Positions 33,437-49,684 of a stretch of DNA of 64,000 bases are shown here, one piece after another. Origin of the DNA: a virus; IMG/VR virus record IMGVR_UViG_3300009601_000004, positions 28,737 through 92,736 of that record; one strand, given 5' to 3'. The notes beneath the pieces are model-generated. The model had not been told where the DNA came from. It saw nothing but the letters and a program-made list of their open reading frames with translations, and made no database searches. The first letter of the stretch is position 1. Every line of letters begins with the position of its first letter. Both the position numbers and the translations under genes were made by a program.

Positions 33437-34402
33437 TCATCTCCGGGTCATGTATAGAGCGATGGCGTAGGCGTCCCAAGTGTGTCGATGCTTGCGCAGA
33501 CGTCGGGGTAGCCGTGGGTTGTTTTTGTCGTTGACCAGGTCCTGCAGTTCACGCCAGACACGCGAATCGCGGCCTACTTCGGTAGGTGTCAGCCCCAGCA
33601 AAGAAGAGGCCCAAGTGCGTTTGTCTATGACGGTTCGGCCTTGGCTTGCCCCATCGGAAGCAATGGCGTTGACGACGTCGGCACTCCGCTTGTCCTTGCC
33701 GCCGCCCCACGTCTCTTCCACGACCAGGCGATAGGTGCCTTGCGCGAGCTGTGCGGCTCGTGCGGCGATGTGCTCGCCGATACCGGCCATCGTATCGAAC
33801 GTCAGTACCTCACCGCTCCCTGCGGCTTCTAGCAGCCCTCGACCGCCTTTACTGTCTTCGTCCCAAGACCAGCCCCAAGCACCCAAGATGCGCCTGCCAT
33901 CTGCCGTGATGAGGACGGCGGCACCGCTGGGGCCGTCGTCGACTGCGAGCACTGGGTTAGCGTGGCGCGGGTTGCGCTTGACCGTCGGTGTGCTGCGGGC
34001 CAGCAGCTCGATACGACCCGTCAAGGTGGGACCGTTGAGTGACTGATAGCCTTTCGTGATGAGCTGGTTGCTGTACGACGCAGCGACACCAGAGGCGTGC
34101 GAGACGGTGATGTGATGTGGGCCCACAGAAGGAAGTCCACGAGGCAGCTCAACGACCAGAGCCTGCGCCTGCTGGTCTTGCGCCACTCCTACCACTTTCA
34201 TGCGCACTGCACGCCCGACAAGGTCAGGCAGAGCGGACAGCGCGAGTGTGACGTGGTCCGCAGTGACATGGGGATGTGCAGGCGCCACGGCGCGTAGCAC
34301 AGCTCGCCGTGACTTAGGGGACAGCTTGACCGCGGTGTATTCGCGACGACGCTTTGTCATGCGTCGATACCGGAGGCTTGCAGCTGGAAGGCGTGGGGCC
34401 AC
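33437..34402 (-). CDS. 2H phosphoesterase fused to a RuvC-like nuclease
   Basis: Two HxT motifs (DHVTL, HHITV); then VLAVDDG, LVVEE, W..LLG, DAYAIA. Confidence 0.65.
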   Translation of the reverse strand: MAPRLPAASLRYRRMTKRRREYTAVKLSPKSRRAVLRAVAPAHPHVTADHVTLALSALPDLVGRAVRMKVVGVAQDQQAQALVVELPRGLPSVGPHHITVSHASGVAASYSNQLITKGYQSLNGPTLTGRIELLARSTPTVKRNPRHANPVLAVDDGPSGAAVLITADGRRILGAWGWSWDEDSKGGRGLLEAAGSGEVLTFDTMAGIGEHIAARAAQLAQGTYRLVVEETWGGGKDKRSADVVNAIASDGASQGRTVIDKRTWASSLLGLTPTEVGRDSRVWRELQDLVNDKNNPRLPRRLRKHRHTWDAYAIALYMTRR

Positions 34403-36723
34403 TTCGCAATGGTGTCCTCCATCCGCAGCATCTCAGCGTGCTCTTTGCCTGGTAGACGCCGACCGGCCTCTGCGTAGCCCATCATGCGGTCTTCCATCGC
34501 AACGTACTGCCGGTACATCTTCGTAGCCACTGCCATCGTGGGGAGGCCGTCGTTGTCGTCGTTGTCGTTGCTGGCCTGGATGGCCTTCACGAGCTTGCGC
34601 CAGTCCCAGTTTGGGATGCCAAAGACTTCCGCAACGTGCATCAGCGCGGCACCTGTAAGGATGCGCTGCTGCACCTGACCACGCCGGCTCCAGTTGAACC
34701 CGCGCAGCTTGCCATGGATGGGAGCACCCCGCTCGTAGGCGAGTTTGATGCGGTCGTCTGTGATCTCGATGCCGACCTCGGTACCGTCAGGCGCAACCAA
34801 GTTGCCGGACACACCCGAGGCCTCTTTGCGCACGAGGATGTCATCGAGCATGTCGACGGCGGCTTTCAAGTCGGGCCCCGTGGCTTTACCTTGACGCCTC
34901 GCGGCAATCAATAGCTTCAGCTTGCGCAGCTGGATACCGGCTTGACCCCCTGACTCTTCCATGCGTGCTTTGTTGATCTCACGCTGGGTGACTTTGGCCG
35001 CTTGCTTGATCAAGTCGAGCCAGTCCCCTTGCCGGCGGTCGGCACTGTCCGACTTTTTTTGCTCCCGGCGCTCATTGCGACCACCTCGGCCTGTGATCAT
35101 CCACGATGTGGTACCTGCCCGCGAGCCCAAAAAGGCGCGGAAAGCGGCTTTGTACTTTGTCAGGAAGCGGCCTAGCTCGGCAATGGCTGTACGGCGCTGG
35201 TTGACTGTATCCGCCATGTCTGCAGCCTCTTCTGCCATGTCATTCCACATACTGGCGTACTCACGGCGGTACTGCTCTCCGCGCCTCTCCGCTGAAAATG
35301 ACGTGCCTTGGAAGGCCATCGACGCCGTTGAGCTGCTGACGTCACGTATGGACGCTCTAGGTGCCGGCAGGTAGACCTCGTCGTCAGGTGTGATGCGCGG
35401 TGGTAGCGGCTGAGGCTTGCCTAAGACCTTCTCGTACTTGGCTATCAACGCGTCCATCTTCGCGTCAGCAGACGCTTTCCGCGCACCCTGTGTGGCTTTG
35501 AGCCGGTCACGGTGGACCTTGTCACTCGCAGCCTTACTGGCAACCGCCTGTGATAGCCGAGGTACGCGCTGACTCCAGAGAAAGCGGAGAATCTCCTCAC
35601 TGGTGTCCCCTGGGCCAAACCAGCTATTCCAGCCCCCGTAGCCATTCTTCTCGCCTAAGCGCACACCGAACACAGCGGCAACCAAGTCACCGCCAGCGTA
35701 GTTGCTCATCATCTCGCGGGTCTTGCCTCGGCCCTTCCGCCCGTCTTTGTCTACGGTTTTGGCGATGGCGTCAGCCAGCTGTACCATTGTTTTCTTTGCG
35801 GGAGATGCTGGGGCATTCGTCCACAGCAACGGAGGGGTGTTGAGACCCGACATACGCCGCACTAGGAGGTTGACCACCTGACGCGACTCGTCACCTGCAT
35901 CCTCTGTTGTGATGGCAAAGTATGCGCGAGACCTGCCGTCTTTTTTGGGCTTAGCCCACTTGCGCATCTCGATGGTGAAGGGCTGACCCTCCAAGCTGAC
36001 AGGCTCCCCTTCCCAGGCAAAAGCGCGTACTGCGGGGATCAATTCGGGATTCTTCTCGTGGTAGTGGTCATCCGCCACCATTGCGCCTGGTAGAGGTGTT
36101 CCTTCACTCCGCGTGGCTTCAACCACACTCCGCCACTGCATGGCGGGGTACTCGATGCCTTCAATGGGCTTCGGGATGGCCTTCGCGGCGGGTGCCTTCT
36201 TGGCTGCTATGGACTGTAGGTAGTACCCACTACCCACACCTTTCGGCTTTTTCAGCTCGACTTGCAGGCCGCCAGCGTTCACGAGGTCCGTGATCTCTTG
36301 GCGCATTTTAGGTGTGATGCGCTTTACCGTGGTGTGCCCGACCGAACCGCGGTGACTACGCTTCTGCGTCTCACGTACGAGGTCGCCACGCATAAACCCC
36401 CGCTGCTCTGCGTAAGACAAGCGACTGTTGAGGCTCGACAGGCCCCACCGCATATCGGGGTCACCGACACCACGGTGCAGCCGGTGGGCCGCGTCGTTGA
36501 GGATGTACTCCGCGATGGCTTCGGCGTGAGTTGTCTTCGTCTTCTTGGCTGCTACGGCTTCCGCTACTTCGTAGATGGGACCGCCCTTACTTACGAGGGT
36601 CTTGCGGTGCTTCATCATCCAGGTGGCGGTCGAACGTGTCGAGCTGTCCGAGGCCATGATGGCGTGAACACGGTCAAAGATGTGCGTTGCGAGTGACGCG
36701 TTGCTGGGATTCTTACGTCTCAT
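34357..36723 (-). CDS. Large multidomain (polyvalent-like) protein
   Basis: N-terminal RKNP plus shared leader domain; SWMITG and GFNWS..QRILT motifs. Confidence 0.6.
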   Translation of the reverse strand: MRRKNPSNASLATHIFDRVHAIMASDSSTRSTATWMMKHRKTLVSKGGPIYEVAEAVAAKKTKTTHAEAIAEYILNDAAHRLHRGVGDPDMRWGLSSLNSRLSYAEQRGFMRGDLVRETQKRSHRGSVGHTTVKRITPKMRQEITDLVNAGGLQVELKKPKGVGSGYYLQSIAAKKAPAAKAIPKPIEGIEYPAMQWRSVVEATRSEGTPLPGAMVADDHYHEKNPELIPAVRAFAWEGEPVSLEGQPFTIEMRKWAKPKKDGRSRAYFAITTEDAGDESRQVVNLLVRRMSGLNTPPLLWTNAPASPAKKTMVQLADAIAKTVDKDGRKGRGKTREMMSNYAGGDLVAAVFGVRLGEKNGYGGWNSWFGPGDTSEEILRFLWSQRVPRLSQAVASKAASDKVHRDRLKATQGARKASADAKMDALIAKYEKVLGKPQPLPPRITPDDEVYLPAPRASIRDVSSSTASMAFQGTSFSAERRGEQYRREYASMWNDMAEEAADMADTVNQRRTAIAELGRFLTKYKAAFRAFLGSRAGTTSWMITGRGGRNERREQKKSDSADRRQGDWLDLIKQAAKVTQREINKARMEESGGQAGIQLRKLKLLIAARRQGKATGPDLKAAVDMLDDILVRKEASGVSGNLVAPDGTEVGIEITDDRIKLAYERGAPIHGKLRGFNWSRRGQVQQRILTGAALMHVAEVFGIPNWDWRKLVKAIQASNDNDDNDGLPTMAVATKMYRQYVAMEDRMMGYAEAGRRLPGKEHAEMLRMEDTIAKWPHAFQLQASGIDA

Positions 36724-38837
36724 TGAGCTTTCCCTGCGAATGTAAGGTACCCGGCGCTACCGCCGACGGTGTGAGCTTCCCCGTGCTTGTACAGTCCGCG
36801 AACCTTCCACACGTATTTTTGGCGACGCTGCTCTGCGTGCTGGCCTGCGAACCACTGACCGCTCACCCCTTCCAATAGGTCCAACTGCAACCCCGGTGCT
36901 AGGTCGCGGATAGTCACACGCGTTTCACTGCCCTTGTTACCGCCGGAAAGGGCCACTAGCTCCAGTGTGGGGTCGCCCGCGTCGCCTGACACGTCTACGA
37001 CCACCCAGAGCTTGCGGCCCCCCTTGAGCTTCACCACGTTGTTTAGCCAGTTGTACAAGTCTGGGTGAGCCTTCGCGCTGTACGGCGCAGGCTTGACCTT
37101 GCCGAGCTTGCTCATGTCGACGTGCTCGACAGGTATGGTGAGACCGCCCACCTTCGCTGTGGTGGTGTGCGTGATGGCTACCCCACGAGCTTCGTGGGCA
37201 AGTGAATGCTCTAGTTCTTCGTTGTAGCTGTCACGCAGCTTTGCCGTCTTGCTCGCATTTGCCTCGCGGGTCGTGGCTGATGCGCGAGTGTAGGCGCGGT
37301 AGCGCAGCTTCTCCAACTTGGCTGTCTGCTTGTCAATGTCATGCCGTACCGCTTTGGACGGTCGCGGGGTGCCCCGCTCGTGCAGAGTGATTCCCTGCCG
37401 ATGTGCCTCGACACGTGCGGACCTGGCTTGCTCAACTGCGTCGGCAAACCCTGGGTCTTTGTACCCCTTTTGAATGACGTCCACAGCAGCTGACATAGCA
37501 GCTTGCAACTGAGCCGGTGTGCGCCCCTTTGAGATGGCTACCGGCTTGCGCTTGGGCTTCTGCGCAGTCCACGTCTTGTACGAGTCCTGCACATCCTCAA
37601 GGGTGTACGAACTGGAGTGGGTGGGCTTCTGGGGCCCCATCATGTAGCCGCCTCGACGCCGCGCGTGCTCCTTTAGGTAGTCAGCTACACTCATGCTCGC
37701 ATAATGCTTCAGTGTCGAGAGCAGGGCTCGCAGGGCTCGCTGCGCGCCAGACCCGAAAGATTGGCTGTACCAGTGCCAGCTGTACGCGCCACGCAATGTG
37801 TAGGCTGCTCGTTTGCCGCCGCCGGAGTTTGTTACCCGCCAACCTTCGGGAAGGTGGCGCTTAACGTCCCGAATGGACGCGACACGACCTTTAGCCTCGG
37901 CATCCGCAAGGGCTTGCTCAACGACCTTAGCTCCGACCTGGCTTTCCGCTAGGAACGCGGTCACTTGCTCTGCGAATAGCTTGTCAGCGAGGGCGTAGGC
38001 TGCGCTATCGCGACGTCCTTTGGCCGCTGCGGCCCGGTCGTCTTGGGCGACTTGGGCGGCGCCGGCTTTCGACGCGACGATACGGGGGTCTCGATACCCA
38101 GCACCCGCAAGCACTTGCTTCCCGATAACGGGCCAAAACTTCCACGAGTTTGCGAGCTTCTGCAGAGATGCCCTGCGGGTCTTTTCCATCGTGTGTTCGA
38201 TCTTCTGGCCCTTGTAGAACAGATCAGCGTCCCAGCGTACCCATGAGCGCTCCCCAACCTTGTTGACCTTGACGGTGACTCGGTCGCGGATGCCGGCGTC
38301 GTCAAGGATGCCATTAAAATAGGCCGTCGCGTCTTTGACGTTGGTACCTACCTCGGAACCGTCACTCTCCTTGCTCCCGGTAAGTACACTCTTCGAGGTC
38401 TGTGGCTGCAGAACGCGCAGAATGGTTTGGTTCGCAGCTTCCCAGCCTGCGGGGTACTTCAGTCCTTCGGCCGACATCAGATGCCGCACAAGCTCAAAGC
38501 CGTAGATGCTCGCCGCCATGGCACGCATGGAGCCAGTGAGCCCTTGCCCCTCTAGGTAGAACTTGTTCACCAGTGTGGCCGCACGCTCAACTTGGTCCAG
38601 CAACGGCGTGTCCTTGCTCCGCAACCCAGCAAACCAATCAGGTACCTCCGCAGCCGGCGGTAGCTCGTCGTCGAGCCCACGTTTAGCAGCGACCACAGAC
38701 GCGGCCTCTGTGAAGATGCCAGCAATCAACGCAGCGCGGTTGCGCTCCATGAAGGCGGCGGTTGCCTGGCCCTCGCGGGTCGCCTGCAGGTATGCGTGCG
38801 TTGCTGCGTAGAGACGGGTTGGTAGTGAGATGGCCAT
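36720..38837 (-). CDS. Large basic multidomain protein with shared leader domain
   Basis: 705-aa ORF coupled to the next gene; N-terminal shared motif. Confidence 0.65.
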   Translation of the reverse strand: MAISLPTRLYAATHAYLQATREGQATAAFMERNRAALIAGIFTEAASVVAAKRGLDDELPPAAEVPDWFAGLRSKDTPLLDQVERAATLVNKFYLEGQGLTGSMRAMAASIYGFELVRHLMSAEGLKYPAGWEAANQTILRVLQPQTSKSVLTGSKESDGSEVGTNVKDATAYFNGILDDAGIRDRVTVKVNKVGERSWVRWDADLFYKGQKIEHTMEKTRRASLQKLANSWKFWPVIGKQVLAGAGYRDPRIVASKAGAAQVAQDDRAAAAKGRRDSAAYALADKLFAEQVTAFLAESQVGAKVVEQALADAEAKGRVASIRDVKRHLPEGWRVTNSGGGKRAAYTLRGAYSWHWYSQSFGSGAQRALRALLSTLKHYASMSVADYLKEHARRRGGYMMGPQKPTHSSSYTLEDVQDSYKTWTAQKPKRKPVAISKGRTPAQLQAAMSAAVDVIQKGYKDPGFADAVEQARSARVEAHRQGITLHERGTPRPSKAVRHDIDKQTAKLEKLRYRAYTRASATTREANASKTAKLRDSYNEELEHSLAHEARGVAITHTTTAKVGGLTIPVEHVDMSKLGKVKPAPYSAKAHPDLYNWLNNVVKLKGGRKLWVVVDVSGDAGDPTLELVALSGGNKGSETRVTIRDLAPGLQLDLLEGVSGQWFAGQHAEQRRQKYVWKVRGLYKHGEAHTVGGSAGYLTFAGKAQ

Positions 38838-40823: not shown

Positions 40824-41336
40824 CTAACCTATGAGGCGCTCTGCCTCTTTGTGCAGATCACGCGGTAGCCGTTCACCATCAACTAGCCACTCTAGGTAGC
40901 TGGCGGGCACGTCGGCTAGGGCCTTGCCTCGGTGCTTGCCGAAGGGCATCACGTACTCCTCGCCTACGCTGGCAAGGAGACGTTCCCTGGCATCGCCAGT
41001 AACGACGCCTCGGTCGATGCGGTCTAGCAGACGGTACACCTCGAAGGCGTATGTTTCATTGCCCATGGCCGCGCGGGTCTTTGCTCCTATGCGCGGGTCA
41101 TCGTGGTACGTCGCCTGGCGGCTGTCACTCTGATTCACCGACGCATCTCGTGTGCTGCGACTTGCCTCGTGCCGCCTTGCTTCACGGCGCTCACGCGCTT
41201 TCGCACGCACAGCTGGCGATGTCTTGTACTCGTGTTGCCCAGTGCCGCCGCAGGAGAAGCAAACGCCCCCTTGCACATGGTGCGCCCAGTTGAGTCGTCC
41301 TGTGCCATCGCACTTGCCGCAAGTCTCACGATACAT
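40824..41336 (-). CDS. DnaJ-type zinc finger plus DUF3820-like (MPFGKH) domain protein
   Basis: CGKCDGTG, CFSCGGTG; MPFGKHRG..L.DVP.SYLEWL. Confidence 0.75.
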   Translation of the reverse strand: MYRETCGKCDGTGRLNWAHHVQGGVCFSCGGTGQHEYKTSPAVRAKARERREARRHEASRSTRDASVNQSDSRQATYHDDPRIGAKTRAAMGNETYAFEVYRLLDRIDRGVVTGDARERLLASVGEEYVMPFGKHRGKALADVPASYLEWLVDGERLPRDLHKEAERLIG

Positions 41337-44300
41337 CAGCTCTCCCGTCCGAGTAAATCCCAGCGCGCGGCACCCGCAACGGGTCCGGCCTCCCATCGTA
41401 TTTTGCGGGTCGTGCCTTTGGCGGCTTGTACACTTGCTGCCGATCGAGCGCCTTGCTTGCCACGCTTGCCACCGATGAGGGCGACAGGCCGCAACCCTTG
41501 CGATTTAAGGGCCTTGTAGGTATGGCCCCCTTCGCTCTCTAGGCTGTAGGTCACGAACAACCAAGGGCCGTCGGCGTCCCCTCGCTTGCTTGCAGGTGCC
41601 GCTTGTAGAACGGCGCTCGCAAGCATGGAAGATGCACCCGCGACACTGCCGTCGCTTGCGATGCGTGTCAGCTCTAGGACGTTGCGCTGGTCGAGGCGCT
41701 TCCATGGTGCGGAGGGATGACCTGCAGTCGCGACTGCTACCAAGCGGTCACCCCGGAAGGCACCTAGTGCGTACATGGTGCGGCGAGGCAGTTGCTTGAG
41801 TTGGCTGTGGTGAGCAGCTAAGAAGGCCCTAGCGGCCTCCCGGTCGACAGGTGCTAGGCGTAGCTTCTTACCCGCCTCGCCCACTGCCAGGTAGGTGAGC
41901 ATGTCAGCCATTGAGGCGACAGCTAGCCAGGTAGGAAGGGTCTGGTCGTCGTTGCGGGATGCGTCGTCGCGGGTGCGTCCTGTGTCGTGCTTCTTGCCTC
42001 CGGTGTGGCGATAGATCGGGTCACCGAAGGGCGAACCATCCCACCTGCCAGGGTCGGTCTCCATGGCGAGTTTGAACGCATGGACGGCCACAGAGCGGTC
42101 AAGGGCCTTGTCTGCGTTGAGCCCCATCGTACCGAGCACGGTCTCCATGGCTTCGGTGCTTGTCTCGTCGTCTGTCTTGCCTGCCAAGGCTTCCCACGCC
42201 CACGAGGCTTCGGGCTGTCCCAGCCAGTTCTTTGCAGTGCTTACGAGCTGCGCTGCCTGGTCAGGAAGGTCAGAGGGTAGGCCAGCGGGCCGACTGCGCT
42301 TGGTGGGTGTCTTGGGGCTGTAGCGCTTCCACAGACCAGCTTTCGGGTCGCCTGCAATGACCTCGCGGACCGCTTGACGGGTGACGGCGGGTGTCTCCAG
42401 TGTGTGAGCTTCCGCGCGTATCTCGGTCTCCATTGCCTGATGGAACACCTGATCCATGTACCAGGGCGAGTCGTTGGGGGCGTCGGCCTGCATGAACTCT
42501 GTCGGGTCCGCTGCCATGGCCCTACGCCAAGCCTGTGCAACCTTTCGAGGAGGGTTGTAGGCTTTGACCAGTGCGGAGGCCAGACGGTGCCGTGCGGCCT
42601 TCGTCATCCAGTCGAGATCACTCTCCACCTCGGTGCCGTCCATCGACCCACCGGGCGCCCACCGGGTCTCAGCGACGTCGCGACGCGCGGTATCTTTCGT
42701 CTTCATGTAGGGGCCAGGGTGGTGGCGGTTGCCCACCTTGCCGCGCAGGTAGACGCTATCGAAGTAGACCTCTGCACGTGGGTAGGCTTCGCGCACCATG
42801 GACAGGCGTTCTTGTGCTCCAGGTGCGCCGGGTGCGAGTCCCAGGAAGTGGAACGCATTCGGTGGGCTCTTGCGTACCGCACGCAGAAAGGCGCCCAGTT
42901 CTTCGATGGTGGTCGCGTCCTTCTTGCTGGGGATGCCGGCCACGAGCGTTGCACCACGTAGCTCTTTGCTCGCGGCGTTCCACATCTTGGCTTGGTCCCA
43001 CTTCCCGCCACGCTGCAGAGGTACGATGAGCCGGACGGGGGCAAAGGCCCCCAGTGCCCGCAGCTCGGGTGCGTAGCGGTCCCACAGCTTTACGGTGTGT
43101 GCAGGGTCGGCAACGCGGTCAGGGGCCACCAGGAAGAGACCGGGGGCGTGTGCTGGCCATCTGCTAGCAAGCCGATTGTAGACCCCTAGAACCTCTGGCC
43201 AGTTTGGTGCTTTGGCTGCGTCCCAAGCGGGCCCGGTTGCTGTGAACTCAACCTCCGAGAAAGCACCCGAGTCCACGAAGACAGGGACGGCGCTCGCGAT
43301 GTCGAGCAGTGCACCGACAGAGGCCTTGGTCAGCTCGGTCACAGCAACGCCGACGGCCTGACCCGCAGCACCGAGTGCGGCAATTTCAGCGGATCGAGTC
43401 GCACCACTGGCGAAGTAGACAGGAGGCTGCACGGCCTGCGTGCGTGAGCCGCCCATCCCGCTGTCACCGAGGTTTGAGCATATGGAGAGGTCGCCCAGTG
43501 GGAATAGGCCTTGGTCGGTGCCGGCCGACATCGAGCCGGCTGGCGGTCCCGGTCGACGGCCATCGGCTTGCTGCAGGGCGTTGCGGACGTGAGCGAGTAC
43601 AGCTCTGCCCATGTTCACTGGGATGCCGTTCCCTACTTGCTTGTACTCTTCTGCTTGCCCACCTGCGAAGACGTACCAGGAGGGAACATCTTGGAGCTTT
43701 GCGGCCTCTCTAGGCGTGAGCTGCCGGACCTCGCCTAGCTCTGGCGACAGGGCGCCCTTCTTGCCTTCCGGCTGGTGTCCAGGCTCCACAGTGATGCCGT
43801 AGGGGATTCCCTTGTACATGCTCTTGGTCATGGCCGGTGCCAACCAGCGGCCCACCAGGGCATCACGTTTGCCGGTCGGCCACCAGTTCGCGAAGGCCCC
43901 ACCGTAGTCGATGAACCCCTGCAGCTTCAGACGGTTGCGGCCATCCGTCAGCTCGCGATTGAGGTAGGCGATTGACTTGGGTGTCAGCTCGTCTCGGATG
44001 ACGTCGTTGTCGGCTTGCTCGTAGTTGCTGCCCATCTTGCAACCCCCACACATCCCGTCAAGGTTGCCGATGTTCACACACGAGCTGTACCCGAAGCCCC
44101 CGCAACATCCGTCGTTGAGCCGGTCGAATGCACGGGTATAGACGTTGGCCGATCCGTATGGGATCGATCGAGGGTCCAGACGGGTCGGTCTAGGGCCTGC
44201 TCGAAGGTAAGAGGCCCACGGTGCTCCCTTTGGCCAGAGCACGTAGAAGGCCCGTTCCCGCGTCTGCGGTGTACCGAAACTCGCAGCCTTCAAGACCCAC

Positions 44301-44869
44301 ACGGTCCCCTCGTACCCGGCCTCGTCGGCGAGCGTCTTCCACCAGACATCCCAGTAGGCTGACCACTTGCCAGCGCGGACGGTATTTGGGCTGTTTTCCA
44401 TTACGATAACGCGAGGCTGTCCTTCGCGTGCCCAGCGGATAACTTCGGGAAACAGGTTGCGAGGGTCCAGCGGTCCAAGTTGCCTACCCGCAGTGCTCCA
44501 CCCTTGGCAGGGTGGCCCACCTGTGAGGACATCGAGCCCTCCGCGGGGGATGTCCGGTGTCCACTTCGTTGCGTCGGCCTGCTTTGCTTTGCCTGGCAGC
44601 TGCCTGTCGAGCGTCTCAACCGCGGCGGCGTCGCACTCGACTAGCTCCTGCAGGTCGTAGCCTTCGATGAACCCAGCGAGCGCCAGCAGTCCACCACCAG
44701 CAAAAACGTCGGTCATGGTGTAGCGGTCACTCTTGCGGGGTAGGCGTCGCATGGCCTCGTTGAGCTGCACAAGGACAGGCGCACGATTGCGCACCATCCA
44801 CGCCGCCGTGTCGTTGGGCAGTGCTTTGTGCAGAGCCTCAAACAGGTCGCTGGTCGTGCGTACCGCCAC
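41336..44869 (-). CDS. Fusion of C5 cytosine DNA methyltransferase, TGT/DpdA-like transglycosylase and Mom/XF1762-like GNAT
   Basis: FAGGG, GGPPCQ, EN, QTRER, LTPREAAKLQ, QVGN; then VDSGAFS, APD..D, PLQ, HFLG, FDS; then F...HH, LVAVA..G.P, LELTR, LFVTY. Confidence 0.8.
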   Translation of the reverse strand: MAVRTTSDLFEALHKALPNDTAAWMVRNRAPVLVQLNEAMRRLPRKSDRYTMTDVFAGGGLLALAGFIEGYDLQELVECDAAAVETLDRQLPGKAKQADATKWTPDIPRGGLDVLTGGPPCQGWSTAGRQLGPLDPRNLFPEVIRWAREGQPRVIVMENSPNTVRAGKWSAYWDVWWKTLADEAGYEGTVWVLKAASFGTPQTRERAFYVLWPKGAPWASYLRAGPRPTRLDPRSIPYGSANVYTRAFDRLNDGCCGGFGYSSCVNIGNLDGMCGGCKMGSNYEQADNDVIRDELTPKSIAYLNRELTDGRNRLKLQGFIDYGGAFANWWPTGKRDALVGRWLAPAMTKSMYKGIPYGITVEPGHQPEGKKGALSPELGEVRQLTPREAAKLQDVPSWYVFAGGQAEEYKQVGNGIPVNMGRAVLAHVRNALQQADGRRPGPPAGSMSAGTDQGLFPLGDLSICSNLGDSGMGGSRTQAVQPPVYFASGATRSAEIAALGAAGQAVGVAVTELTKASVGALLDIASAVPVFVDSGAFSEVEFTATGPAWDAAKAPNWPEVLGVYNRLASRWPAHAPGLFLVAPDRVADPAHTVKLWDRYAPELRALGAFAPVRLIVPLQRGGKWDQAKMWNAASKELRGATLVAGIPSKKDATTIEELGAFLRAVRKSPPNAFHFLGLAPGAPGAQERLSMVREAYPRAEVYFDSVYLRGKVGNRHHPGPYMKTKDTARRDVAETRWAPGGSMDGTEVESDLDWMTKAARHRLASALVKAYNPPRKVAQAWRRAMAADPTEFMQADAPNDSPWYMDQVFHQAMETEIRAEAHTLETPAVTRQAVREVIAGDPKAGLWKRYSPKTPTKRSRPAGLPSDLPDQAAQLVSTAKNWLGQPEASWAWEALAGKTDDETSTEAMETVLGTMGLNADKALDRSVAVHAFKLAMETDPGRWDGSPFGDPIYRHTGGKKHDTGRTRDDASRNDDQTLPTWLAVASMADMLTYLAVGEAGKKLRLAPVDREAARAFLAAHHSQLKQLPRRTMYALGAFRGDRLVAVATAGHPSAPWKRLDQRNVLELTRIASDGSVAGASSMLASAVLQAAPASKRGDADGPWLFVTYSLESEGGHTYKALKSQGLRPVALIGGKRGKQGARSAASVQAAKGTTRKIRWEAGPVAGAARWDLLGRES

Positions 44870-44872
44870 GCT

Positions 44873-46981
44873 CTACCCCTTCTTCGCGGCTTTAAGCGTC
44901 GGGTGGCCGGTCTCGTGTGGACGTCCACCACCGATGCGGTCGCTTGTCCGAATCCACGCCGTGTTGCCTCGTCCTGTCTTGGCGATTGAGACACTGCCCC
45001 GCACGTAAGCGTCTCCTACCTTTTTCCAGTTCGCCTTTTCCGCTTTGGCCGCGAGCGCTGCACGCTTGGGCTCGACGTGACCAAAGTAAGGCGACAGATC
45101 TATACGCACACCTGTAGCAGCTCGAACACCTTGCCACGCTCGACTGTGCATGACAGACTCTCGGTCTTTGATGCCCGAACCCCCTAACATCTGATGGAGC
45201 TGGAAAGCGAGGGACGCGAAAAGCGTGTACTCGTTGGAGATCTCTAGGGCCTGGTCGTACTGGTCGCCGTCTCTGGGGATGGTGAGCTTGCGCTCTTTGA
45301 ACCACTTGCGGTTGATGGCCTCTTCGACGATGTCAACCGCGAAGTCGCGCGCTTCGTCCTCTTCCCCCGCATACCAGCTAGCGGTCTCTTCCTCCTCTAC
45401 GGCCGCAAGCACAACCTCCTGCAACTCCTTCCCCGTGGGGTCCTTCCAAGACTCCTCCGCATTGCCGGCAGAGACGCCAAAGATGGCAGCAACGTACATG
45501 GCAACCAGGAAGTTCTGCATCTCCTCTGCACCTGGGGCGTCGATGTCGTCCGTCAGCACATCGCCGTCAGACTCGGCTACCATCTTCTTGTAGTAGGCCA
45601 CGACTGTTGGGATGCCTTGAGCACCGGCTTTGCCGCAGGCTGTGCGGACGGTGTTGTACCAGTCCTGCGGCGTCTTGTGGAGGCCCTTGACGGCGCCAGA
45701 GCGCAAGATCTGGCCAAAGGCGAGCCAGTCGAGTGCAGCCGCTTCGCGAATCAGCGTGAACGAGCCGAACGCATCCTTGGGCTCTGCGTTGAAGTTGCGA
45801 CTACTGAAGCCCATGATCTTCGCATCGTATGCGTTGGTGGCCAGATACTTCGAGGCTTCCCCAACGAGCAGCACAGCACCATAGCCCCCCTCGAAAGCTC
45901 CCATGAGATGCAGTGGTGCCTTATCCCCTGCGTGACGTCGACCACTCCCACTCCAGTCACCTAGAGCCTGTCCACGCTGTGGCTTCGCTTTGGGGGAGGG
46001 CTTCACCTTGGCGCGCTTGGCGTTGACAGCATCTGCGGTCTTGTTGAACTCTGCCATGACCTTATGAGACTCGACCTGCATCCAAAGTGCCGTATCTCGC
46101 GTAGCTGGGTTGGCCTGGAGCACGGCGTAGACTGCATTGAAGAGTTGGACACCTGTGACGCCTGCTCGTGTGGTCGCGGGTGCTTTAACTCTCGCTGGTG
46201 CCTTTTGTGCGGTGTACACGCCGCTCTGATCTACCAGCCACTGGATAGCTTGGTTCTTTGGCGGGAAGGCCTGCGCTGCACGGCTCTGATACTGCTTGTC
46301 CACAAACATGAAGTCGGCTTTAGTGGGCGCGCTAGCTCCCGCTGGTCGGCGTGCCTCCCAGCGTTCTGCCCCAGACATAACGCCACCCTTGATGTGGTCT
46401 GCTGTGCCTATGAACCGCCGACGCCGCCGATAGTCAGTGAGGTAGACGTCACCTTGCTTGGTCAGTTCTGCCCCATAGGTTTCGCCGGCCTGACTAGGCC
46501 CGCCCTTGGGTGTCATTGTGTAGGACCCAGGCTTGACAGCTCCCGTGGCTTTCGTCACTGCTGCTGTAGCGACTGCGGTGCCTGGCCCACTCGCCACAGT
46601 GCCGCCCGTGACCGCGTGCCGCTTGATCAGTCGGAGGACGTTGGCCACCGCTTGCTGCGGCTTGCTGTCAATCGCCCACTTACGCTCGGCTTTCGGCATC
46701 TTGCCGTCAATGAAGACGTGCTGATTTTGCTTCCAATGGGGGAGACCCACAGCCTTATGGTCGCCCCAGAAGCTGTGAATGAAGCCGCCCGCTACGCTTA
46801 CCTTAGCGCCACCTGGGACCGTGTCAAAGTAGTATTCAGTGCCACCCAGCGGGTCTACCTCCGCACGGTAGGGCACGCCCAGGCTAGCCACACCATTTGC
46901 AAGCGCTATAGTTAGCGCTATCTGCAGTTGTTTGCGGTCCTTCTCGGTTGCTCGGTACAGACGTTCGGCCATGTGTTCCAT
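44873..46981 (-). CDS. Large multidomain protein with an internal copy of the shared domain
   Basis: 702-aa ORF; LFNAVYAVL..TALWM..AVNAKR; true start may be 46972. Confidence 0.65.
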   Translation of the reverse strand: MEHMAERLYRATEKDRKQLQIALTIALANGVASLGVPYRAEVDPLGGTEYYFDTVPGGAKVSVAGGFIHSFWGDHKAVGLPHWKQNQHVFIDGKMPKAERKWAIDSKPQQAVANVLRLIKRHAVTGGTVASGPGTAVATAAVTKATGAVKPGSYTMTPKGGPSQAGETYGAELTKQGDVYLTDYRRRRRFIGTADHIKGGVMSGAERWEARRPAGASAPTKADFMFVDKQYQSRAAQAFPPKNQAIQWLVDQSGVYTAQKAPARVKAPATTRAGVTGVQLFNAVYAVLQANPATRDTALWMQVESHKVMAEFNKTADAVNAKRAKVKPSPKAKPQRGQALGDWSGSGRRHAGDKAPLHLMGAFEGGYGAVLLVGEASKYLATNAYDAKIMGFSSRNFNAEPKDAFGSFTLIREAAALDWLAFGQILRSGAVKGLHKTPQDWYNTVRTACGKAGAQGIPTVVAYYKKMVAESDGDVLTDDIDAPGAEEMQNFLVAMYVAAIFGVSAGNAEESWKDPTGKELQEVVLAAVEEEETASWYAGEEDEARDFAVDIVEEAINRKWFKERKLTIPRDGDQYDQALEISNEYTLFASLAFQLHQMLGGSGIKDRESVMHSRAWQGVRAATGVRIDLSPYFGHVEPKRAALAAKAEKANWKKVGDAYVRGSVSIAKTGRGNTAWIRTSDRIGGGRPHETGHPTLKAAKKG

Positions 46982-47014: not shown

Positions 47015-49684
47015 TCATCTGGCACGCTTGAGTGCAGCGCCAAGGTCGCGGAGGGTTACCAGAATTGGCCGACCGTTCTTATCTAGTCGCAATTCGTGCC
47101 CCAAACGTCCACCAACACGCGAAGCGAAAGTAGCAGACACCGCAGAGGACACGTCACCATCAAGCAGCGCTATGGCCTGCTCTACCGTGCTTTCCCCCTC
47201 GTGTACACGTTCACCCCCCATGACAGCCTCGACTTCGATGCGCTTGCGTTGAAGCATCTCGGTGATGTGCTCGTCAACCGTGCCGCGTGCCAGCAGGTGC
47301 GTGAAGGTCGTGCGGTCAGTCTGGCCGATACGGTGGATACGGTCCTCGCCCTGCTCCATCCATGAAGGGTTCCACCACTGCTCGACGAACAGCATGTCAG
47401 AGGCAGCGGTCAATGTGATGCCTTGGTAGCCGGCCTTGGTCAGGACGATGACGTCGCGCTCTCCCGCTTGGAAGGCCTTCACGCGCTCATTGCGCTTCTT
47501 TGCCGACACAGCCCCGTCGAAGTATGTCCAGTTAGCACCGAGCTTGTCCAGACCTGCACAGATGCCCTTGAGGACCGCTTGGTGCCACACAAACACAACG
47601 AGCGGCCCAGCTTCTACCGCTTGCCTGTCTGCAATCCACTGCAGTGCAGGGGCTACCTTCGCTTCTCCGATGAAGCGCCACAGAGACATGATGGTGTTGC
47701 GTGAAGCGTGTTGATTGAATGCGCTTTCGCTGTTGCCGGCGCGCACGGCAGCAACAGCCGCCTGAGCCGGGAGGATGCCATCCCCGACTAGGTGATGGAA
47801 GTGGGCCACCGACGCCTTGAGTGCCCGCTCCTTGGCGACGCCGAGCATGTACTCCGCACCTTTGTCCGCAGCCCCATCGTATTTTTTGCGAACGGTGTCA
47901 GGGAGGTTGAACCACAGTGGTACCCTGGTTTTGTCCGGCAGCTCTCCGAGTACCTCGGACTTGCGGCGACGTACCATGTGGTAGCGCAGACGATGCCGCA
48001 ACTCTGCATTGAGGTCCCCCCCGGCATCGTCCACGAAGGTGCGCAGCTCTGTACGTCCGCGCTTTGCTCGTTTTTCCACGATGCGTTGACGGAGGTTGCG
48101 ATACCGGTGGTTGAAGTCGTCGCGGGTCGGGAACTCTTCACGGTCGATGATGTGCAATGGATGCCACATCTCGCTAGTTTTATTCTCGATGACGGTACCG
48201 GACAGACCAATGCAGTAGGGCACAGATTGACCGATGGCCTTGAACGCTTGCGACCGTTTGGCCTGGGGGTTCTTTGCCATGTGGATTTCATCACCGATGA
48301 CTGTCTGCACGCCCTCAAAAAGAAGGTCTTGCGCCAGCGGGGCAAGCAAGTCCCAGCTCACCACCCACACGCGCCGGTCGTTGGCCGGTGGCAGTTCTGC
48401 GGCAGCGCTCCCGATGACAACGGGGTCGAACCAAGGTGCAAATAGCTTGATCTCGTCGACCCAGTTGTGTGTCACCGAGCCCGGTGCAATCACGAGAGCA
48501 GGCAAGAGCTGACCATGCCCGTGCAACAGCGTTGCAATCGCCTGTATGGTCTTGCCGAGCCCCATGGCGTCCGCGATGAGCCCACGATAGCCACGGGCGG
48601 CCAAGAAGGCTACACCGATGCTCTGATACTCCCGCAGCACCAGACCGGGGGGGAGCGGCACATTACGCTCCACAGCTCGTGCCCACTGCCGAATGTCTGG
48701 GTCGGCAATCTCGGCAAACGTACCCGCGGCAGACAGCAGCGCGAGGTCTCGCCGGGGTTCGGCTGCGCTGTCCGTGCAGATGGCTAAACGAATCGCGAGA
48801 GCCGAAGCAAGATTACGACGTTCAAGCTGACGCGTAACGCGCAACACCTGACGACCGTCGAAGCTCGTGTAGTGCGCTCCCTTGTCGTGGTAGTCGATGG
48901 CACCTGGCAGGGTGCGCCGCCAGTCGCCGACCTCCCCTGCACCCTCACCTACGAGCAGCGCAATGCGGTCCGGCTGCTCGCCGCCGCCCTCTAGCCACTG
49001 CCAACGCACGAGGGTCTCCCCCTTGCCAGGACCGTCCCAAGCGATGACATGCCCCTTGTCCATGCCGGGCCGGACCTTGTGCGCGAGCAGCTGGGCCACG
49101 ACGGGTAGGCAGCGGTCGAAGTAGGTGGCGTCTCCTCTGTCCTTGCTGCTGGACATCCGCTGCATCGCCCGTGTGAAGCCTTCCGCCTCCTTGTACAGCT
49201 CGACACTGACGCCACAAGCGGCGGCGCCGTCGGCGATGCGCTGGGCTTCAATGGCATCAAGTGCGTACTCTTCTGCTCGCTCCTCTTTGAGTGCTCCAGT
49301 CCACAGGGGCAGTAGCAGAGCCAGCGCACGCGACAGAATGGGGCGCTTCGCTTTGGCCAGTGCCTCAATGATGCGCGGAACGTCGGCAAGGTCGACCTCT
49401 GCGTACCATAGGCCTTGAACTTGTCGCCACAGACCACACCCAGGCACCGCATGGGTGTGGTCTTCGAGCGTGCCAATGTCTAGGCCGATGGCCCCGCAAA
49501 ACTGTTTCAGCTGGCCACTGAAGCCGAAACGGGCCGTCTCAGGACCGCCGCACCCCATGCCCCGGTCATCCCGCCATCCATCGTTCCAAGCGTACCAGCC
49601 GTCAGGCACCACGGTACCGTGCATCGGAGGCACTACAGTGGGTGTCTGTTCACTCACGCGAGCCACCATTTCCAAGTATCCCAC
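47015..49684 (-). CDS. SNF2-family helicase (HARP/SMARCAL1-like)
   Basis: DAMGLGKT, DEIH, LSGT, RRRKSEVL.ELP, GITLT, QGEDRIHRIGQ. Confidence 0.92.
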   Translation of the reverse strand: MGYLEMVARVSEQTPTVVPPMHGTVVPDGWYAWNDGWRDDRGMGCGGPETARFGFSGQLKQFCGAIGLDIGTLEDHTHAVPGCGLWRQVQGLWYAEVDLADVPRIIEALAKAKRPILSRALALLLPLWTGALKEERAEEYALDAIEAQRIADGAAACGVSVELYKEAEGFTRAMQRMSSSKDRGDATYFDRCLPVVAQLLAHKVRPGMDKGHVIAWDGPGKGETLVRWQWLEGGGEQPDRIALLVGEGAGEVGDWRRTLPGAIDYHDKGAHYTSFDGRQVLRVTRQLERRNLASALAIRLAICTDSAAEPRRDLALLSAAGTFAEIADPDIRQWARAVERNVPLPPGLVLREYQSIGVAFLAARGYRGLIADAMGLGKTIQAIATLLHGHGQLLPALVIAPGSVTHNWVDEIKLFAPWFDPVVIGSAAAELPPANDRRVWVVSWDLLAPLAQDLLFEGVQTVIGDEIHMAKNPQAKRSQAFKAIGQSVPYCIGLSGTVIENKTSEMWHPLHIIDREEFPTRDDFNHRYRNLRQRIVEKRAKRGRTELRTFVDDAGGDLNAELRHRLRYHMVRRRKSEVLGELPDKTRVPLWFNLPDTVRKKYDGAADKGAEYMLGVAKERALKASVAHFHHLVGDGILPAQAAVAAVRAGNSESAFNQHASRNTIMSLWRFIGEAKVAPALQWIADRQAVEAGPLVVFVWHQAVLKGICAGLDKLGANWTYFDGAVSAKKRNERVKAFQAGERDVIVLTKAGYQGITLTAASDMLFVEQWWNPSWMEQGEDRIHRIGQTDRTTFTHLLARGTVDEHITEMLQRKRIEVEAVMGGERVHEGESTVEQAIALLDGDVSSAVSATFASRVGGRLGHELRLDKNGRPILVTLRDLGAALKRAR

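What the first reader, a model, noticed from the sequence alone, without database searches (positions are those of the whole stretch)
41336..44869. One polypeptide joining three different DNA base-modification enzyme types (C, G and A)
Seen: the 1177-aa ORF has (i) a full C5-cytosine methyltransferase motif set (FAGGG, PPCQ, EN, RER, GN; ~44720-43570), (ii) a segment with VDSGAFS, APD..D, PLQ, HFLG and FDS (~43420-42740), and (iii) a C-terminal F..HH / LVAVA..G.P / LELTR / TY segment (~41870-41340). Established: this motif order in (ii) typifies tRNA-guanine transglycosylase/DpdA barrels that swap guanine for 7-deazaguanines; (iii) resembles XF1762/Mom-like GNATs, and Mu Mom modifies adenine. 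Inference: a single anti-restriction enzyme that could modify three bases. I do not recall this triple fusion being described. No folE/queC/queD/queE genes are in the window, so any deazaguanine would come from the host or elsewhere in the genome.
Basis: partly seen in the sequence, partly recalled or inferred. Interest (0 to 1): 0.9.

Follow-up and report, generated by a model that had tools for sequence, protein, structure and literature searches.

The report
Three DNA-modifying enzymes fused in one phage protein
A complete 93-kb phage genome encodes one 1177-residue protein that joins a cytosine methylase, a distant relative of the enzymes that swap guanine for 7-deazaguanine, and a relative of the phage Mu adenine-modifying enzyme Mom, which probably lets the phage disguise three DNA bases using only host metabolites.

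Summary
ORF 41336-44869 (-) is intact, 1177 aa, and translationally coupled at both ends.

**Domains**
- Residues 51-426 are a complete C5-cytosine methyltransferase (Pfam E 4e-42).
- Residues ~1003-1160 are an XF1762-family GNAT (NCBIfam above cut-off). The best structural match of its model is the phage Mu Mom crystal structure. Mom's essential Arg111 and Ser124 are conserved.
- Residues ~478-768 match no Pfam, PHROG or PDB sequence. They belong to an unannotated family of 675 clusters at 50% identity.

**Evidence on the middle domain**
- Its AlphaFold model (pLDDT 87) is a TIM barrel.
- An unbiased search of 48,161 chains ranks DpdA, archaeal TGT and bacterial TGT first.
- A profile comparison with phage 9g DpdA (P 8e-5) aligns the catalytic motifs in register.
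- Two family members sit in or beside preQ0 (7-cyano-7-deazaguanine precursor) synthesis genes, in viruses with no other TGT-like gene.

**Recurrence**
The same modules recur elsewhere, fused in other orders or as neighbouring genes. No second protein with all three was found.

**Caveats**
- The phage has no preQ0 genes, as is true of 75 of 78 viral records carrying the family.
- The domain lacks the TGT zinc site and the Gly-rich β6 loop.
- No chemistry is shown.

**Verdict**
This is a new variant of known kinds, and worth an experiment.

The parts
41336..44869 (-). Whole gene, 1177 codons plus stop; GTG start, TGA stop
   Evidence: The start lies 3 nt after the upstream TAG, with AAGGGG upstream. 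The stop overlaps the downstream ATG as TGATG.
44735..44869 (-). N-terminal ~45-aa helical segment (aa 1-45) with motif L[FY]..[..]H ... WM.[RK][NH]R. It is shared with the N-termini of the 705-aa and 788-aa neighbours and with an internal part of the 702-aa neighbour.
   Evidence: MAFFT alignment and six-frame motif scan of the whole genome found only these three N-termini. It is also present in P0003, P0004 and P0005, whichever domain follows.
43592..44719 (-). C5-cytosine DNA methyltransferase domain (aa 51-426) with motifs I, IV (PPCQ, Cys121), VI, VIII, IX and X
   Evidence: Pfam PF00145 E 3.9e-42; TIGR00675 101 bits; PADLOC DNA cytosine methylase E 1e-42; motif positions.
44039..44107 (-). 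Cys-rich insert in the methylase target-recognition region (aa 255-277: CC..., C, C..C), conserved in P0003, P0004 and P0005
   Evidence: Five of the protein's eight Cys lie here.
42566..43438 (-). DpdA/TGT-like (β/α)8 barrel plus C-terminal helices (aa ~478-768; barrel aa 484-725). Invariant residues are Asp533 (DSGAF), Asp584 (APD), Gln619, Pro647 (with Lys649-Lys650 conserved in at least 90% of the family), His674/Gly677 and Asp704 (DS).
42056..42268 (-). Helical domain (aa ~868-938) that precedes the GNAT and travels with it in relatives
   Evidence: Model mb3ba93d16942 has helices at 69-139 with pLDDT 83-93. The domain is present in P0003, P0004, P0006, P0008 and in 280-350-aa standalone relatives.
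41390..41857 (-). XF1762-family / Mom-like GNAT domain (aa ~1003-1160): His1020-His1021, Arg1069, Ser1081, Arg1096, Tyr1108
   Evidence: NF045478 53.9 bits; PF25680 Mom E 8.6e-5, below cut-off; phrog_1384 E 1.8e-12; Foldseek top hit Mu Mom 8bv8 E 4.9e-6; conserved columns.

Best explanation
The gene encodes a three-module DNA-modification enzyme of a lytic-type tailed phage. The genome is a complete 92.7-kb record with direct terminal repeats.

**Module 1 (shown by sequence).** This is a SAM-dependent C5-cytosine methyltransferase with Cys121 as nucleophile.

**Module 2 (fold and family context shown, chemistry inferred).** This is a minimal member of the tRNA-guanine transglycosylase/DpdA superfamily.
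- By analogy with DpdA, Asp704 attacks C1' of a target deoxyguanosine and Asp533 acts as general acid/base.
- Guanine leaves, and a 7-deazaguanine base (preQ0 or preQ1) is installed.
- The phage has no preQ0 pathway, so the base would come from the host's queuosine-precursor pool.

**Module 3 (fold and family shown, chemistry inferred).** This is a Mom-related GNAT.
- It keeps Mom's essential Arg and Ser.
- It would acylate or aminoacylate an exocyclic amine of a base, most likely N6 of adenine as Mom does with Gly-tRNAGly.

**Overall logic.** Each module would need only a ubiquitous host metabolite (SAM, preQ0/preQ1, aminoacyl-tRNA or acyl-CoA). A single polypeptide could therefore mark three bases and blunt many restriction systems without any accessory biosynthetic genes. 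The fusion is one outcome of a recurrent co-selection of these modules in phages and plasmids. It is not a fixed machine, because relatives carry them in other orders, in pairs, or as adjacent genes.
For: **Architecture**
- Searches give the three domains.
- The gene is intact and translationally coupled.

**Module 2**
- It belongs to a family of 675 representatives with invariant DSGAF, APD, Q, HxLGxG and DS.
- These residues sit at the C-terminal ends of β3, β4, β5, β7 and β8 of a confident barrel model.
- hhalign against validated phage 9g DpdA gives P 2e-4, and P 7.6e-5 against a DpdA1 alignment. DSGAFS, LDG, HAG, HGFG and CDS of DpdA fall on the family's invariant motifs.
- Family member L052 is the fifth gene of a QueD-QueC-FolE-QueE operon.
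- Family member L022 abuts QueE-QueC, with a Mom gene 2.4 kb away.
- Neither of those two viruses has any other TGT or DpdA hit. Their family members are the only sub-threshold DUF6610 (=DpdA4) hits.
- Both score 211-283 bits on the family HMM. They bracket the clade that holds the query (quick tree).

**Linkage of the modules**
- Dcm lies within about 1.5 kb of, or is fused to, the family domain in at least 7 of 50 viral records.
- An unfused Mom / Dcm / family trio occurs in L013.
- Known fusions are P0005 (Dcm+barrel), P0006 and P0008 (Mom-like+barrel) and P0003 (Dcm+Mom-like).

**Module 3**
- Searches give the family and fold.
- Arg1069 and Ser1081 align with Mom R111 and S124. These are the two residues shown essential in PMC13219725.

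**Literature**
- Singleton DpdA phages that may rely on host preQ0 are a recognised large group (PMC6884629).
Against: - No biochemical or modification data exist.
- The phage and 75 of 78 viral records with this family lack QueC, so the deazaguanine link rests on two relatives at 25-32% identity.
- The barrel lacks the structural zinc site. It also replaces the Gly-rich β6 loop, which in TGT/DpdA holds the 7-substituent, with P-x-K-K-x-A-T.
- It gives no hit to Pfam TGT, DpdA or DUF6610, nor to PADLOC DpdA.
- The margin over generic TIM barrels is only about 2 Z units.
- The Mom-like domain is below Pfam's Mom cut-off (22.7 against 27.1 bits). hhalign to Mu Mom alone is weak (E 0.035).
- Its model shows a low-confidence basic loop where Mom has its essential HTH-like insertion.
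Confidence: 0.55

Rival explanations
1. The middle domain is a TGT-superfamily enzyme, but in this phage and in most family members it does something other than put preQ0/preQ1 into the phage's own DNA. It might exchange or excise a different base, or act on host tRNA or host DNA, for example to disarm a host Dpd-type system.
For: - 75 of 78 viral records and this complete genome lack QueC.
- The β6 loop that reads the 7-substituent in TGT/DpdA is replaced by an invariant Pro followed by Lys-Lys (each conserved in at least 90% of the family), suggesting a phosphate-bearing or otherwise different ligand.
- There is no zinc subdomain.
- The domain is frequent in giant polyvalent proteins thought to act on the host at entry (PMC5512222).
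Against: - L052 and L022 carry the same P-x-K-K-x-A motif. They nevertheless sit in preQ0 operons as the only TGT-like gene.
- Singleton DpdAs are common among known DpdA phages.
- Recurrent linkage to two DNA-modifying enzymes fits DNA modification.
Confidence: 0.25
2. The Mom-like GNAT does not modify adenine. It may decorate the product of the neighbouring barrel, for example by acylating the aminomethyl group of dPreQ1. Alternatively it may acylate a protein or tRNA.
For: - The Mom-like and barrel modules are repeatedly fused or adjacent (P0006, P0008, L013, L022, L042).
- The primary amine of preQ1 is a better acyl acceptor than N6 of adenine (general chemistry).
- The domain is below Pfam's Mom threshold, and no HTH-like insertion is seen in its model.
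- GNATs in polyvalent proteins were predicted to target proteins (PMC5512222).
Against: - P0003 (76% identical) and P0004 carry the Mom-like module without the barrel. Many 280-350-aa standalone members also exist.
- The best structural match is Mom itself, and R111 and S124 are conserved.
Confidence: 0.12
3. The middle domain is an ordinary TIM-barrel enzyme or scaffold unrelated to nucleic-acid base exchange. The TGT resemblance would then be convergence of a common fold.
For: - Foldseek's first hit was homocitrate synthase.
- No HMM of any TGT/DpdA family hits it.
- hhalign probability is only 47-62%.
Against: - All three TGT-superfamily representatives rank 1-3 of 48,161 chains.
- Five catalytic motifs align in register with a validated DpdA.
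- Family members sit in preQ0 operons and give sub-threshold DUF6610 hits.
- Validated 9g DpdA itself reaches only E 0.02 on the bacterial DpdA model, so HMM silence is expected between subfamilies.
Confidence: 0.05

Closest known systems
DpdA DNA-guanine transglycosylases (bacterial DpdA PDB 7UI4; phage DpdA1-4; DpdA4 = Pfam DUF6610)
   Same: - TIM barrel with DpdA as the best structural match.
- DSGAF motif identical to phage 9g DpdA.
- Asp at β3, β4 and β8 in register with DpdA D95, D130 and D256.
- Relatives occupy the DpdA slot of preQ0 operons.
   Different: - No zinc site.
- The β6 Gly-rich loop is replaced by P-x-K-K-x-A-T.
- No hit to any DpdA, TGT or DUF6610 model for this protein.
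- Usually no phage-encoded preQ0 pathway.
- Often a domain of giant multi-domain proteins of phages and plasmids, which is not described for DpdA in the papers read.
Phage Mu Mom (PDB 8BV8) and the XF1762 protein family (NCBIfam NF045478)
   Same: - GNAT fold with Mom as top structural hit.
- Above the XF1762 cut-off.
- Equivalents of Mom H58, R111 and S124 are conserved.
   Different: - About 16-20% identity to Mom, and below Pfam's Mom cut-off.
- Mom's D149 position is not conserved in the alignment.
- No clear HTH-like insertion.
- Carries its own N-terminal helical domain.
- Donor and target are untested.
Polyvalent proteins of phages and conjugative elements (Iyer et al. 2017, PMC5512222)
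   Same: - Several enzymatic domains sit in one polypeptide of a mobile element.
- DNA methylase and GNAT domains are recurrent components.
- SNF2 helicase and RelA/SpoT genes lie in the same operon here.
- The barrel family occurs in 2,000-8,000-aa ORFs and in an LPD1-domain plasmid protein near traW.
   Different: - That survey does not mention a TGT-like or TIM-barrel domain ('TGT' and 'TIM barrel' each 0 occurrences).
- Its GNATs were assigned to RimI-like protein acetylases, not Mom.
- Whether this protein is packaged and injected is unknown.
Phage and type II C5-cytosine methyltransferases (Pfam PF00145)
   Same: Full motif set and strong HMM scores.
   Different: - Cys-rich insert in the target-recognition region.
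- N-terminal shared 45-aa segment.
- About 750 extra residues carrying two further enzymes.

Membership tests
C5-cytosine DNA methyltransferase (PF00145 / TIGR00675) | HMM score above the curated cut-off | tested here: met
   PF00145 145.3 bits against 22; TIGR00675 101 against 100.65.
C5-cytosine DNA methyltransferase (PF00145 / TIGR00675) | Motifs I (FxGxG), IV (PCQ catalytic Cys), VI (EN), VIII (QxRxR) and X (GN) in order | tested here: met
   FAGGG 56, PPCQ 119, MENS 157, QTRER 202, GNGIP 413.
TGT / DpdA superfamily | (β/α)8 barrel whose nearest solved structures are TGT or DpdA | tested here: met
TGT / DpdA superfamily | Catalytic Asp pair (DpdA D95/D256; TGT DSGGF and FDC motifs) plus base-binding Asp (D130) | tested here: met
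   Asp533, Asp704 and Asp584 are invariant in 44 sequences. They align with the 9g DpdA DSGAFS, CDS and LDG motifs. The roles of these residues come from PMC10164549.
TGT / DpdA superfamily | Gly-rich β6 loop (TGT GGLAVGE; DpdA G206/G207) that holds the 7-substituent | tested here: not met
   The family has [GA]-[IL]-P-x-K-K-x-A-T at β6, against GGLAVGE in E. coli Tgt and LGGLVG in 9g DpdA.
TGT / DpdA superfamily | Structural zinc site (CxCxxC...H) | tested here: not met
   There is no Cys between aa 465 and 1177. No conserved Cys is present in A1.
TGT / DpdA superfamily | Match to Pfam TGT (PF01702), DpdA (PF23859) or DUF6610/DpdA4 (PF20314) | tested here: not met
   No hit at E <= 1 to 10. 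Relatives L052 and L022 reach E 1e-6 and 1e-4 on PF20314, below cut-off. 3 of 44 family members reach E 0.012.
TGT / DpdA superfamily | Genomic linkage to preQ0 synthesis genes (FolE, QueD, QueE, QueC) | tested here: inconclusive
   Absent from this complete genome. Present and adjacent in 2 of 78 viral records with the family. Singleton DpdAs are known.
TGT / DpdA superfamily | Guanine / 7-deazaguanine exchange in DNA | not testable with these tools
   Needs an enzyme assay or nucleoside mass spectrometry.
Mom / XF1762 GNAT | HMM score above the curated cut-off | tested here: inconclusive
   NF045478 XF1762_fam 53.9 against 50, met. Pfam Mom PF25680 22.7 against 27.1, not met. phrog_1384 Mom-like E 1.8e-12.
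Mom / XF1762 GNAT | GNAT fold closest to Mom | tested here: met
   Foldseek rank 1-2 is 8bv8 (Mu Mom S124A), E 4.9e-6, TM 0.58 on the target. Generic GNATs follow.
Mom / XF1762 GNAT | Essential Arg111 and Ser124 | tested here: met
   Arg1069 is invariant and Ser1081 is conserved in at least 90% of 35 relatives. Both align to Mom R111 and S124 (roles).
Mom / XF1762 GNAT | HTH-like insertion (Mom 175-209), essential for Mom activity | tested here: inconclusive
   The model has a basic loop of pLDDT about 53-80 between the last strands and no helices there. A separate N-terminal helical domain exists instead.
Mom / XF1762 GNAT | Gly-tRNAGly-dependent modification of N6-adenine in dsDNA | not testable with these tools
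   Needs in vitro reconstitution as in PMC13219725.
Polyvalent proteins (Iyer et al. 2017) | Two or more effector domains in one polypeptide of a phage or conjugative element | tested here: met
   Three catalytic domains in a phage record with direct terminal repeats (DTR).
Polyvalent proteins (Iyer et al. 2017) | Delivery with the DNA (virion packaging or T4SS transfer) | not tested
   The only hint is an N-terminal segment shared with three neighbouring large proteins.

The most novel reading that the evidence does not exclude
The barrel family would be a new, widespread class of DNA base-exchange enzyme. It would be carried by phages and, inside giant polyvalent proteins, by conjugative plasmids. 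It would work on host-supplied 7-deazaguanine (or another free base) as soon as the DNA enters a cell. In proteins like this one, the Mom-like GNAT would then acylate the inserted base, for example the amine of dPreQ1, giving a hypermodified guanine not yet seen in DNA. The fused methylase would supply sequence targeting.
Probability: 0.12. Interest if true: 0.9.

Novelty: new variant of a known kind. Interest (0 to 1): 0.72.

Why it matters
**If the chemistry holds**
- This would be the first single polypeptide predicted to modify three different bases.
- It would show how a phage can obtain broad anti-restriction cover with one gene and only host metabolites.

**The more general result**
- The middle domain belongs to an unannotated family of 675 clusters at 50% identity.
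- The family looks like a fifth DpdA-type lineage.
- It is common in metagenomic phages and in giant multi-domain proteins of phages and plasmids.
- It is absent, at tblastn level, from 50,697 deposited phage genomes.

**Implications**
- 7-deazaguanine or related base exchange in DNA may be much more widespread than the known DpdA families suggest, and may occur during conjugation.
- The family offers compact candidate enzymes for site-directed base replacement in DNA.

Tried and rejected
**Sequence and HMM searches without a hit**
- Sequence searches of the middle domain and of the family profile against the PDB gave nothing useful.
- The same was true for the C-terminal domain against the PDB.
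- Pfam and PHROGs on the middle domain gave no hit.
- Pfam TGT, DpdA and DUF6610 models against the whole genome gave no hit.
- PADLOC gave methylase hits only.

**Weak comparisons**
- hhalign of the family against E. coli Tgt alone was not significant (probability 0.4%), although it paired DSGAF with DSGGF.
- hhalign of the Mom-like alignment against Mu Mom alone was weak (E 0.035).

**Collection searches**
- blastn of the gene against plasmids found no match.
- tblastn of the middle domain against 50,697 phage records found no match.

Neighbourhoods were taken from the search for related loci instead.
- An attempt to fetch the DpdA4 prototype of Halovirus HVTV-1 used a wrong accession and returned HGTV-1. 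It was not pursued.
- The careful tree did not finish, so only the quick tree is reported.

**Other checks**
- BLASTP among the operon's large proteins showed only a weak 49-residue match. The shared N-terminal segment became clear only by alignment.
- The ESM Atlas gave leads only ('T4 beta protein family'; one neighbouring cluster with 17% DpdA annotation).
- No YhhQ-type preQ0 transporter is encoded in the genome.

Full report
**Setting**

The window is bases 28737-92736 of a complete 92,736-bp IMG/VR virus record with direct terminal repeats. Recognisable genes include:
- a UDG-PolA fusion, a PD-(D/E)XK nuclease and a DUF3987 protein;
- UvrD and SNF2 helicases;
- an endolysin;
- a sigma-factor-like protein and a second DNA methyltransferase outside the window.

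Most large ORFs match no Pfam or PHROG family, so the phage is remote from cultured ones.

The gene of interest lies in a long minus-strand gene string. In order it holds an SNF2 helicase (889 aa), a 702-aa protein, this gene, a 190-aa protein, several small ORFs, 705-, 788- and 321-aa proteins, a RelA/SpoT-like protein and a 268-aa protein.

**The observation**

- The ORF 41336-44869 (-) is open for 1177 codons.
- Its GTG start lies 3 nt after the upstream TAG, behind an AAGGGG.
- Its TGA overlaps the next gene's ATG as TGATG.
- Relative P0003 (76% identical) begins at the same residue.

**Module 1, residues 51-426**

Scores are Pfam DNA_methylase E 3.9e-42, TIGR00675 above cut-off and PADLOC cytosine methylases E 1e-42. 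Motifs I, IV (PPCQ, Cys121), VI, VIII, IX and X are in canonical order. The target-recognition region carries a Cys-rich insert (aa 255-277) that is conserved in P0003, P0004 and P0005. This is an ordinary, apparently active C5-cytosine methyltransferase.

**Module 3, residues ~800-1177**

*Family and fold*
- The last ~160 residues pass the NCBIfam XF1762-family cut-off (53.9 against 50 bits).
- They hit PHROG 'Mom-like DNA modification protein' at 1.8e-12.
- They hit Pfam Mom at 8.6e-5, which is below its cut-off.
- A model built on 35 relatives (pLDDT 76) has a helical N-domain followed by a GNAT core.
- Foldseek ranks the Mu Mom crystal structure 8BV8 first (E 4.9e-6), ahead of generic GNATs.

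*What Mom does.* Mom transfers glycine from Gly-tRNAGly to N6 of adenine in dsDNA, and R111 and S124 are essential (PMC13219725).

*Conserved residues.* In the alignments, His1020/1021 falls on Mom H58/Y59, Arg1069 on R111 and Ser1081 on S124. These residues are invariant or nearly so in the family.

*Unresolved differences*
- The region around Mom D149/R151/Y159 aligns ambiguously.
- Mom's essential HTH-like insertion has no clear counterpart. The model shows a basic, low-confidence loop there.

The domain is therefore a Mom-related GNAT. Its donor and target are inferred.

**Module 2, residues ~478-768**

This was the open question.

*Sequence searches*
- There is no Pfam, PHROG or PDB sequence hit.
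- An exhaustive phmmer search of 1.84 billion representatives found 675 relatives at E <= 1e-3, 443 of them at E <= 1e-10.
- Relatives occur as 280-450-aa proteins and as domains of proteins up to 4,108 aa.
- In 44 aligned standalone members the invariant residues are SG (YFASG), F-D-G-A (FVDSGAF), E, W, V-P-D (VAPD), T, Q, P (of P-x-K-K), H-L-G (HLLGLG), D (DS) and G.

*Structure*
- The AlphaFold2 model (pLDDT 87, pTM 0.80) is an eight-stranded β/α barrel.
- The conserved residues sit at the C-terminal ends of β3-β8.
- Foldseek gave a mix of TIM barrels at TM about 0.44.

|---|---|---|
| 1 | DNA preQ0 insertase DpdA (7UI4) | 14.5 |
| 2 | Archaeosine TGT | 14.4 |
| 3 | Bacterial TGT | 13.1 |
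| 4 onward | Unrelated TIM barrels | 12.2 or less |
| 11 | Cap10 | 11.8 |
| 14 | QTRT2 | 11.6 |

*Profile comparison*
- hhalign with the validated phage 9g DpdA gave P 2e-4. Against an alignment of 21 DpdA1 proteins it gave P 7.6e-5 over 142 columns.
- The DpdA motifs DSGAFS, LDG, HAG, HGFG and CDS fall on the family's DSGAFS, APD, Q-x-G, HLLGLG and DS.
- E. coli Tgt shows the same series: DSGGFQ, FDEC, IQGS, YLMGVG and FDCV.
- These positions correspond to the residues named as the DpdA active site in PMC10164549: D95, D130, H181/G182 and D256.

*Differences from TGT/DpdA*
- β6 carries P-x-K-K-x-A-T instead of the Gly-rich loop.
- The zinc-binding Cys/His cluster is absent.

**Context of the barrel family**

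The search for related loci returned 78 viral loci. About 35 of them carry the domain inside ORFs of 1,000-6,100 aa.

*Link to preQ0 synthesis*
- QueC was found in 3 of the 78 records, and in 2 of them it lies next to the family gene.
- In L052 the gene order is QueD (PTPS), QueC, FolE, QueE (radical SAM), then the family member.
- In L022 the family member abuts QueE and QueC, and a bona fide Mom gene (E 5e-31) lies 2.4 kb away.
- Neither virus has any hit to Pfam TGT or DpdA. Their only sub-threshold DUF6610 hits are the family members themselves.
- DUF6610 is the family that Cui, Hutinet and colleagues named DpdA4.
- Both proteins keep every family motif, including the β6 P-x-K-K-x-A. They score 211 and 283 bits on the family HMM.
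- In a quick maximum-likelihood tree, L052 is basal to, and L022 nested in, the 99%-supported clade that contains the query (quick search, long branches).
- The cited authors argue that every virus with 7-deazaguanine synthesis genes encodes a DpdA. On that argument, these family members are the transglycosylases of those viruses.

*Link to the other two modules*
- Dcm is fused to the barrel domain in G007, G048 and G049.
- Dcm is adjacent to it in G017, G025, G050 and G008.
- Mom-like genes are fused or adjacent in G008, G014 and G026.
- L013 carries Mom, Dcm and the barrel as three neighbouring genes.

*Fusion forms among close relatives*

| Protein | Domains |
|---|---|
| P0003 | Dcm + Mom-like |
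| P0004 | Mom-like + Dcm + PAPS-reductase-like |
| P0005 | Dcm + barrel + unknown |
| P0006 | Mom-like + barrel |
| P0008 | Mom-like + barrel |

Only the query's own cluster (two sequences) has all three modules.

*Distribution elsewhere*
- In plasmids the domain lies in an LPD1-domain giant protein near traW in Cupriavidus, and in Pseudomonas megaplasmids.
- Among one genome per species of 185,579 species, only 18 loci were found with the strict pattern. They come mostly from Myxococcota, Acidobacteriota, Actinomycetota and Alphaproteobacteria.

**Source of the base**

The complete genome has no TGT, QueC, QueD, FolE, radical-SAM or YhhQ homologue. Any 7-deazaguanine must therefore be host-made. 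A large group of singleton-DpdA phages, suggested to rely on host preQ0, is already described (PMC6884629).

**Interpretation**

*Shown*
- The architecture.
- The intactness of the catalytic motifs.
- The fold relationships.
- The recurrent genomic linkage of the three modules.
- The placement of family members in preQ0 operons.

*Inferred*
- The barrel exchanges guanine for a host-derived 7-deazaguanine in DNA.
- The GNAT modifies adenine as Mom does.
- The combined product protects phage DNA from restriction.

*Alternatives*
- The main alternative is that the barrel has a different base or target. The altered β6 loop and the rarity of preQ0 genes argue for this.
- A smaller alternative is that the GNAT decorates the inserted deazaguanine rather than adenine.

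**Comparison with what is known**

- Each module has a known relative.
- The barrel represents an unannotated branch of the TGT/DpdA superfamily, nearest to DpdA4/DUF6610.
- Neither the triple fusion nor a TGT-like domain in polyvalent proteins appears in the papers searched.
- I class it as a new variant of known kinds.

**Earlier scan note**

Note e1-5988265 describes a ~45-aa helical segment shared by four large proteins of this operon. I checked it.
- The N-termini of this protein and of the 705- and 788-aa proteins align, as does an internal stretch of the 702-aa protein.
- The core motif W/F-M-x-[RK]-[NH]-R occurs nowhere else in the six-frame translation of the genome.
- The segment also heads relatives P0003, P0004 and P0005, whichever domain comes next.
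- It may mark proteins that are handled together, for instance packaged. That is untested.

Noticed in passing
window 44735-44869 (-), 38703-38837 (-), 36529-36723 (-), ~45992-46174 (-): A ~45-aa segment with core W/F-M-x-[RK]-[NH]-R heads the 1177-, 705- and 788-aa proteins and lies inside the 702-aa protein. The core motif occurs nowhere else in the genome's six frames. It also heads relatives P0003, P0004 and P0005 regardless of the following domain.
   Followed up: partly
L013:6787-10822 (IMGVR_UViG_3300027881_000008): An unfused version of the same trio: Mom (270 aa, -), Dcm (348 aa, -) and the barrel family member (323 aa, +) as neighbouring genes.
   Followed up: partly
L052:7841-10774 and L022:9992-14502: L052 has the operon QueD-QueC-FolE-QueE followed by a barrel family member. 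In L022 the family member sits next to QueE and QueC, with a true Mom gene 2.4 kb away. Neither virus has another TGT-like gene.
   Followed up: yes
P0004 (1333 aa, metagenomic relative): Fusion of the Mom-like module, Dcm and a C-terminal PAPS-reductase-like (PP-loop) domain. This is another permutation with a fourth enzyme type of unknown role.
   Followed up: no
window 44039-44107 (-): Cys-rich insert (CC...C...C..C) in the methylase target-recognition region, conserved in P0003, P0004 and P0005. It may be a zinc-binding element.
   Followed up: no
window 9627-12785 (-): A 1052-aa protein combining a uracil-DNA-glycosylase-superfamily domain with a family A DNA polymerase.
   Followed up: no
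window 32300-33433 (-) and 47015-49684 (-): A RelA/SpoT-like nucleotidyltransferase and an SNF2 helicase lie in the same minus-strand gene string. This is the same set of activities that recurs in polyvalent proteins, but here as separate genes (PMC5512222).
   Followed up: no
window 34357-36723 (-), aa 141-297 of the 788-aa protein: Weak BLASTP similarity (E 0.004) to the SAM-binding half of the Dcm domain of the 1177-aa protein, although Pfam finds nothing in it.
   Followed up: no
G000:C1:19978-20958 (+), outside the window: A second, separate DNA methyltransferase (326 aa, phrog_56 E 3e-43) is encoded elsewhere in the phage genome.
   Followed up: no
L069, L073, L074 and other IMG/VR loci: The barrel domain lies inside open frames of 5,500-8,163 aa that also contain a Dcm domain just upstream. 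These are very large polyvalent proteins in 57-71-kb viral genomes.
   Followed up: partly
P0337 (phage 9g DpdA): The experimentally validated phage 9g DpdA has no precomputed Pfam domain. It reaches only E 0.02 on PADLOC's bacterial DpdA model. HMM silence between DpdA subfamilies is therefore the rule.
   Followed up: yes
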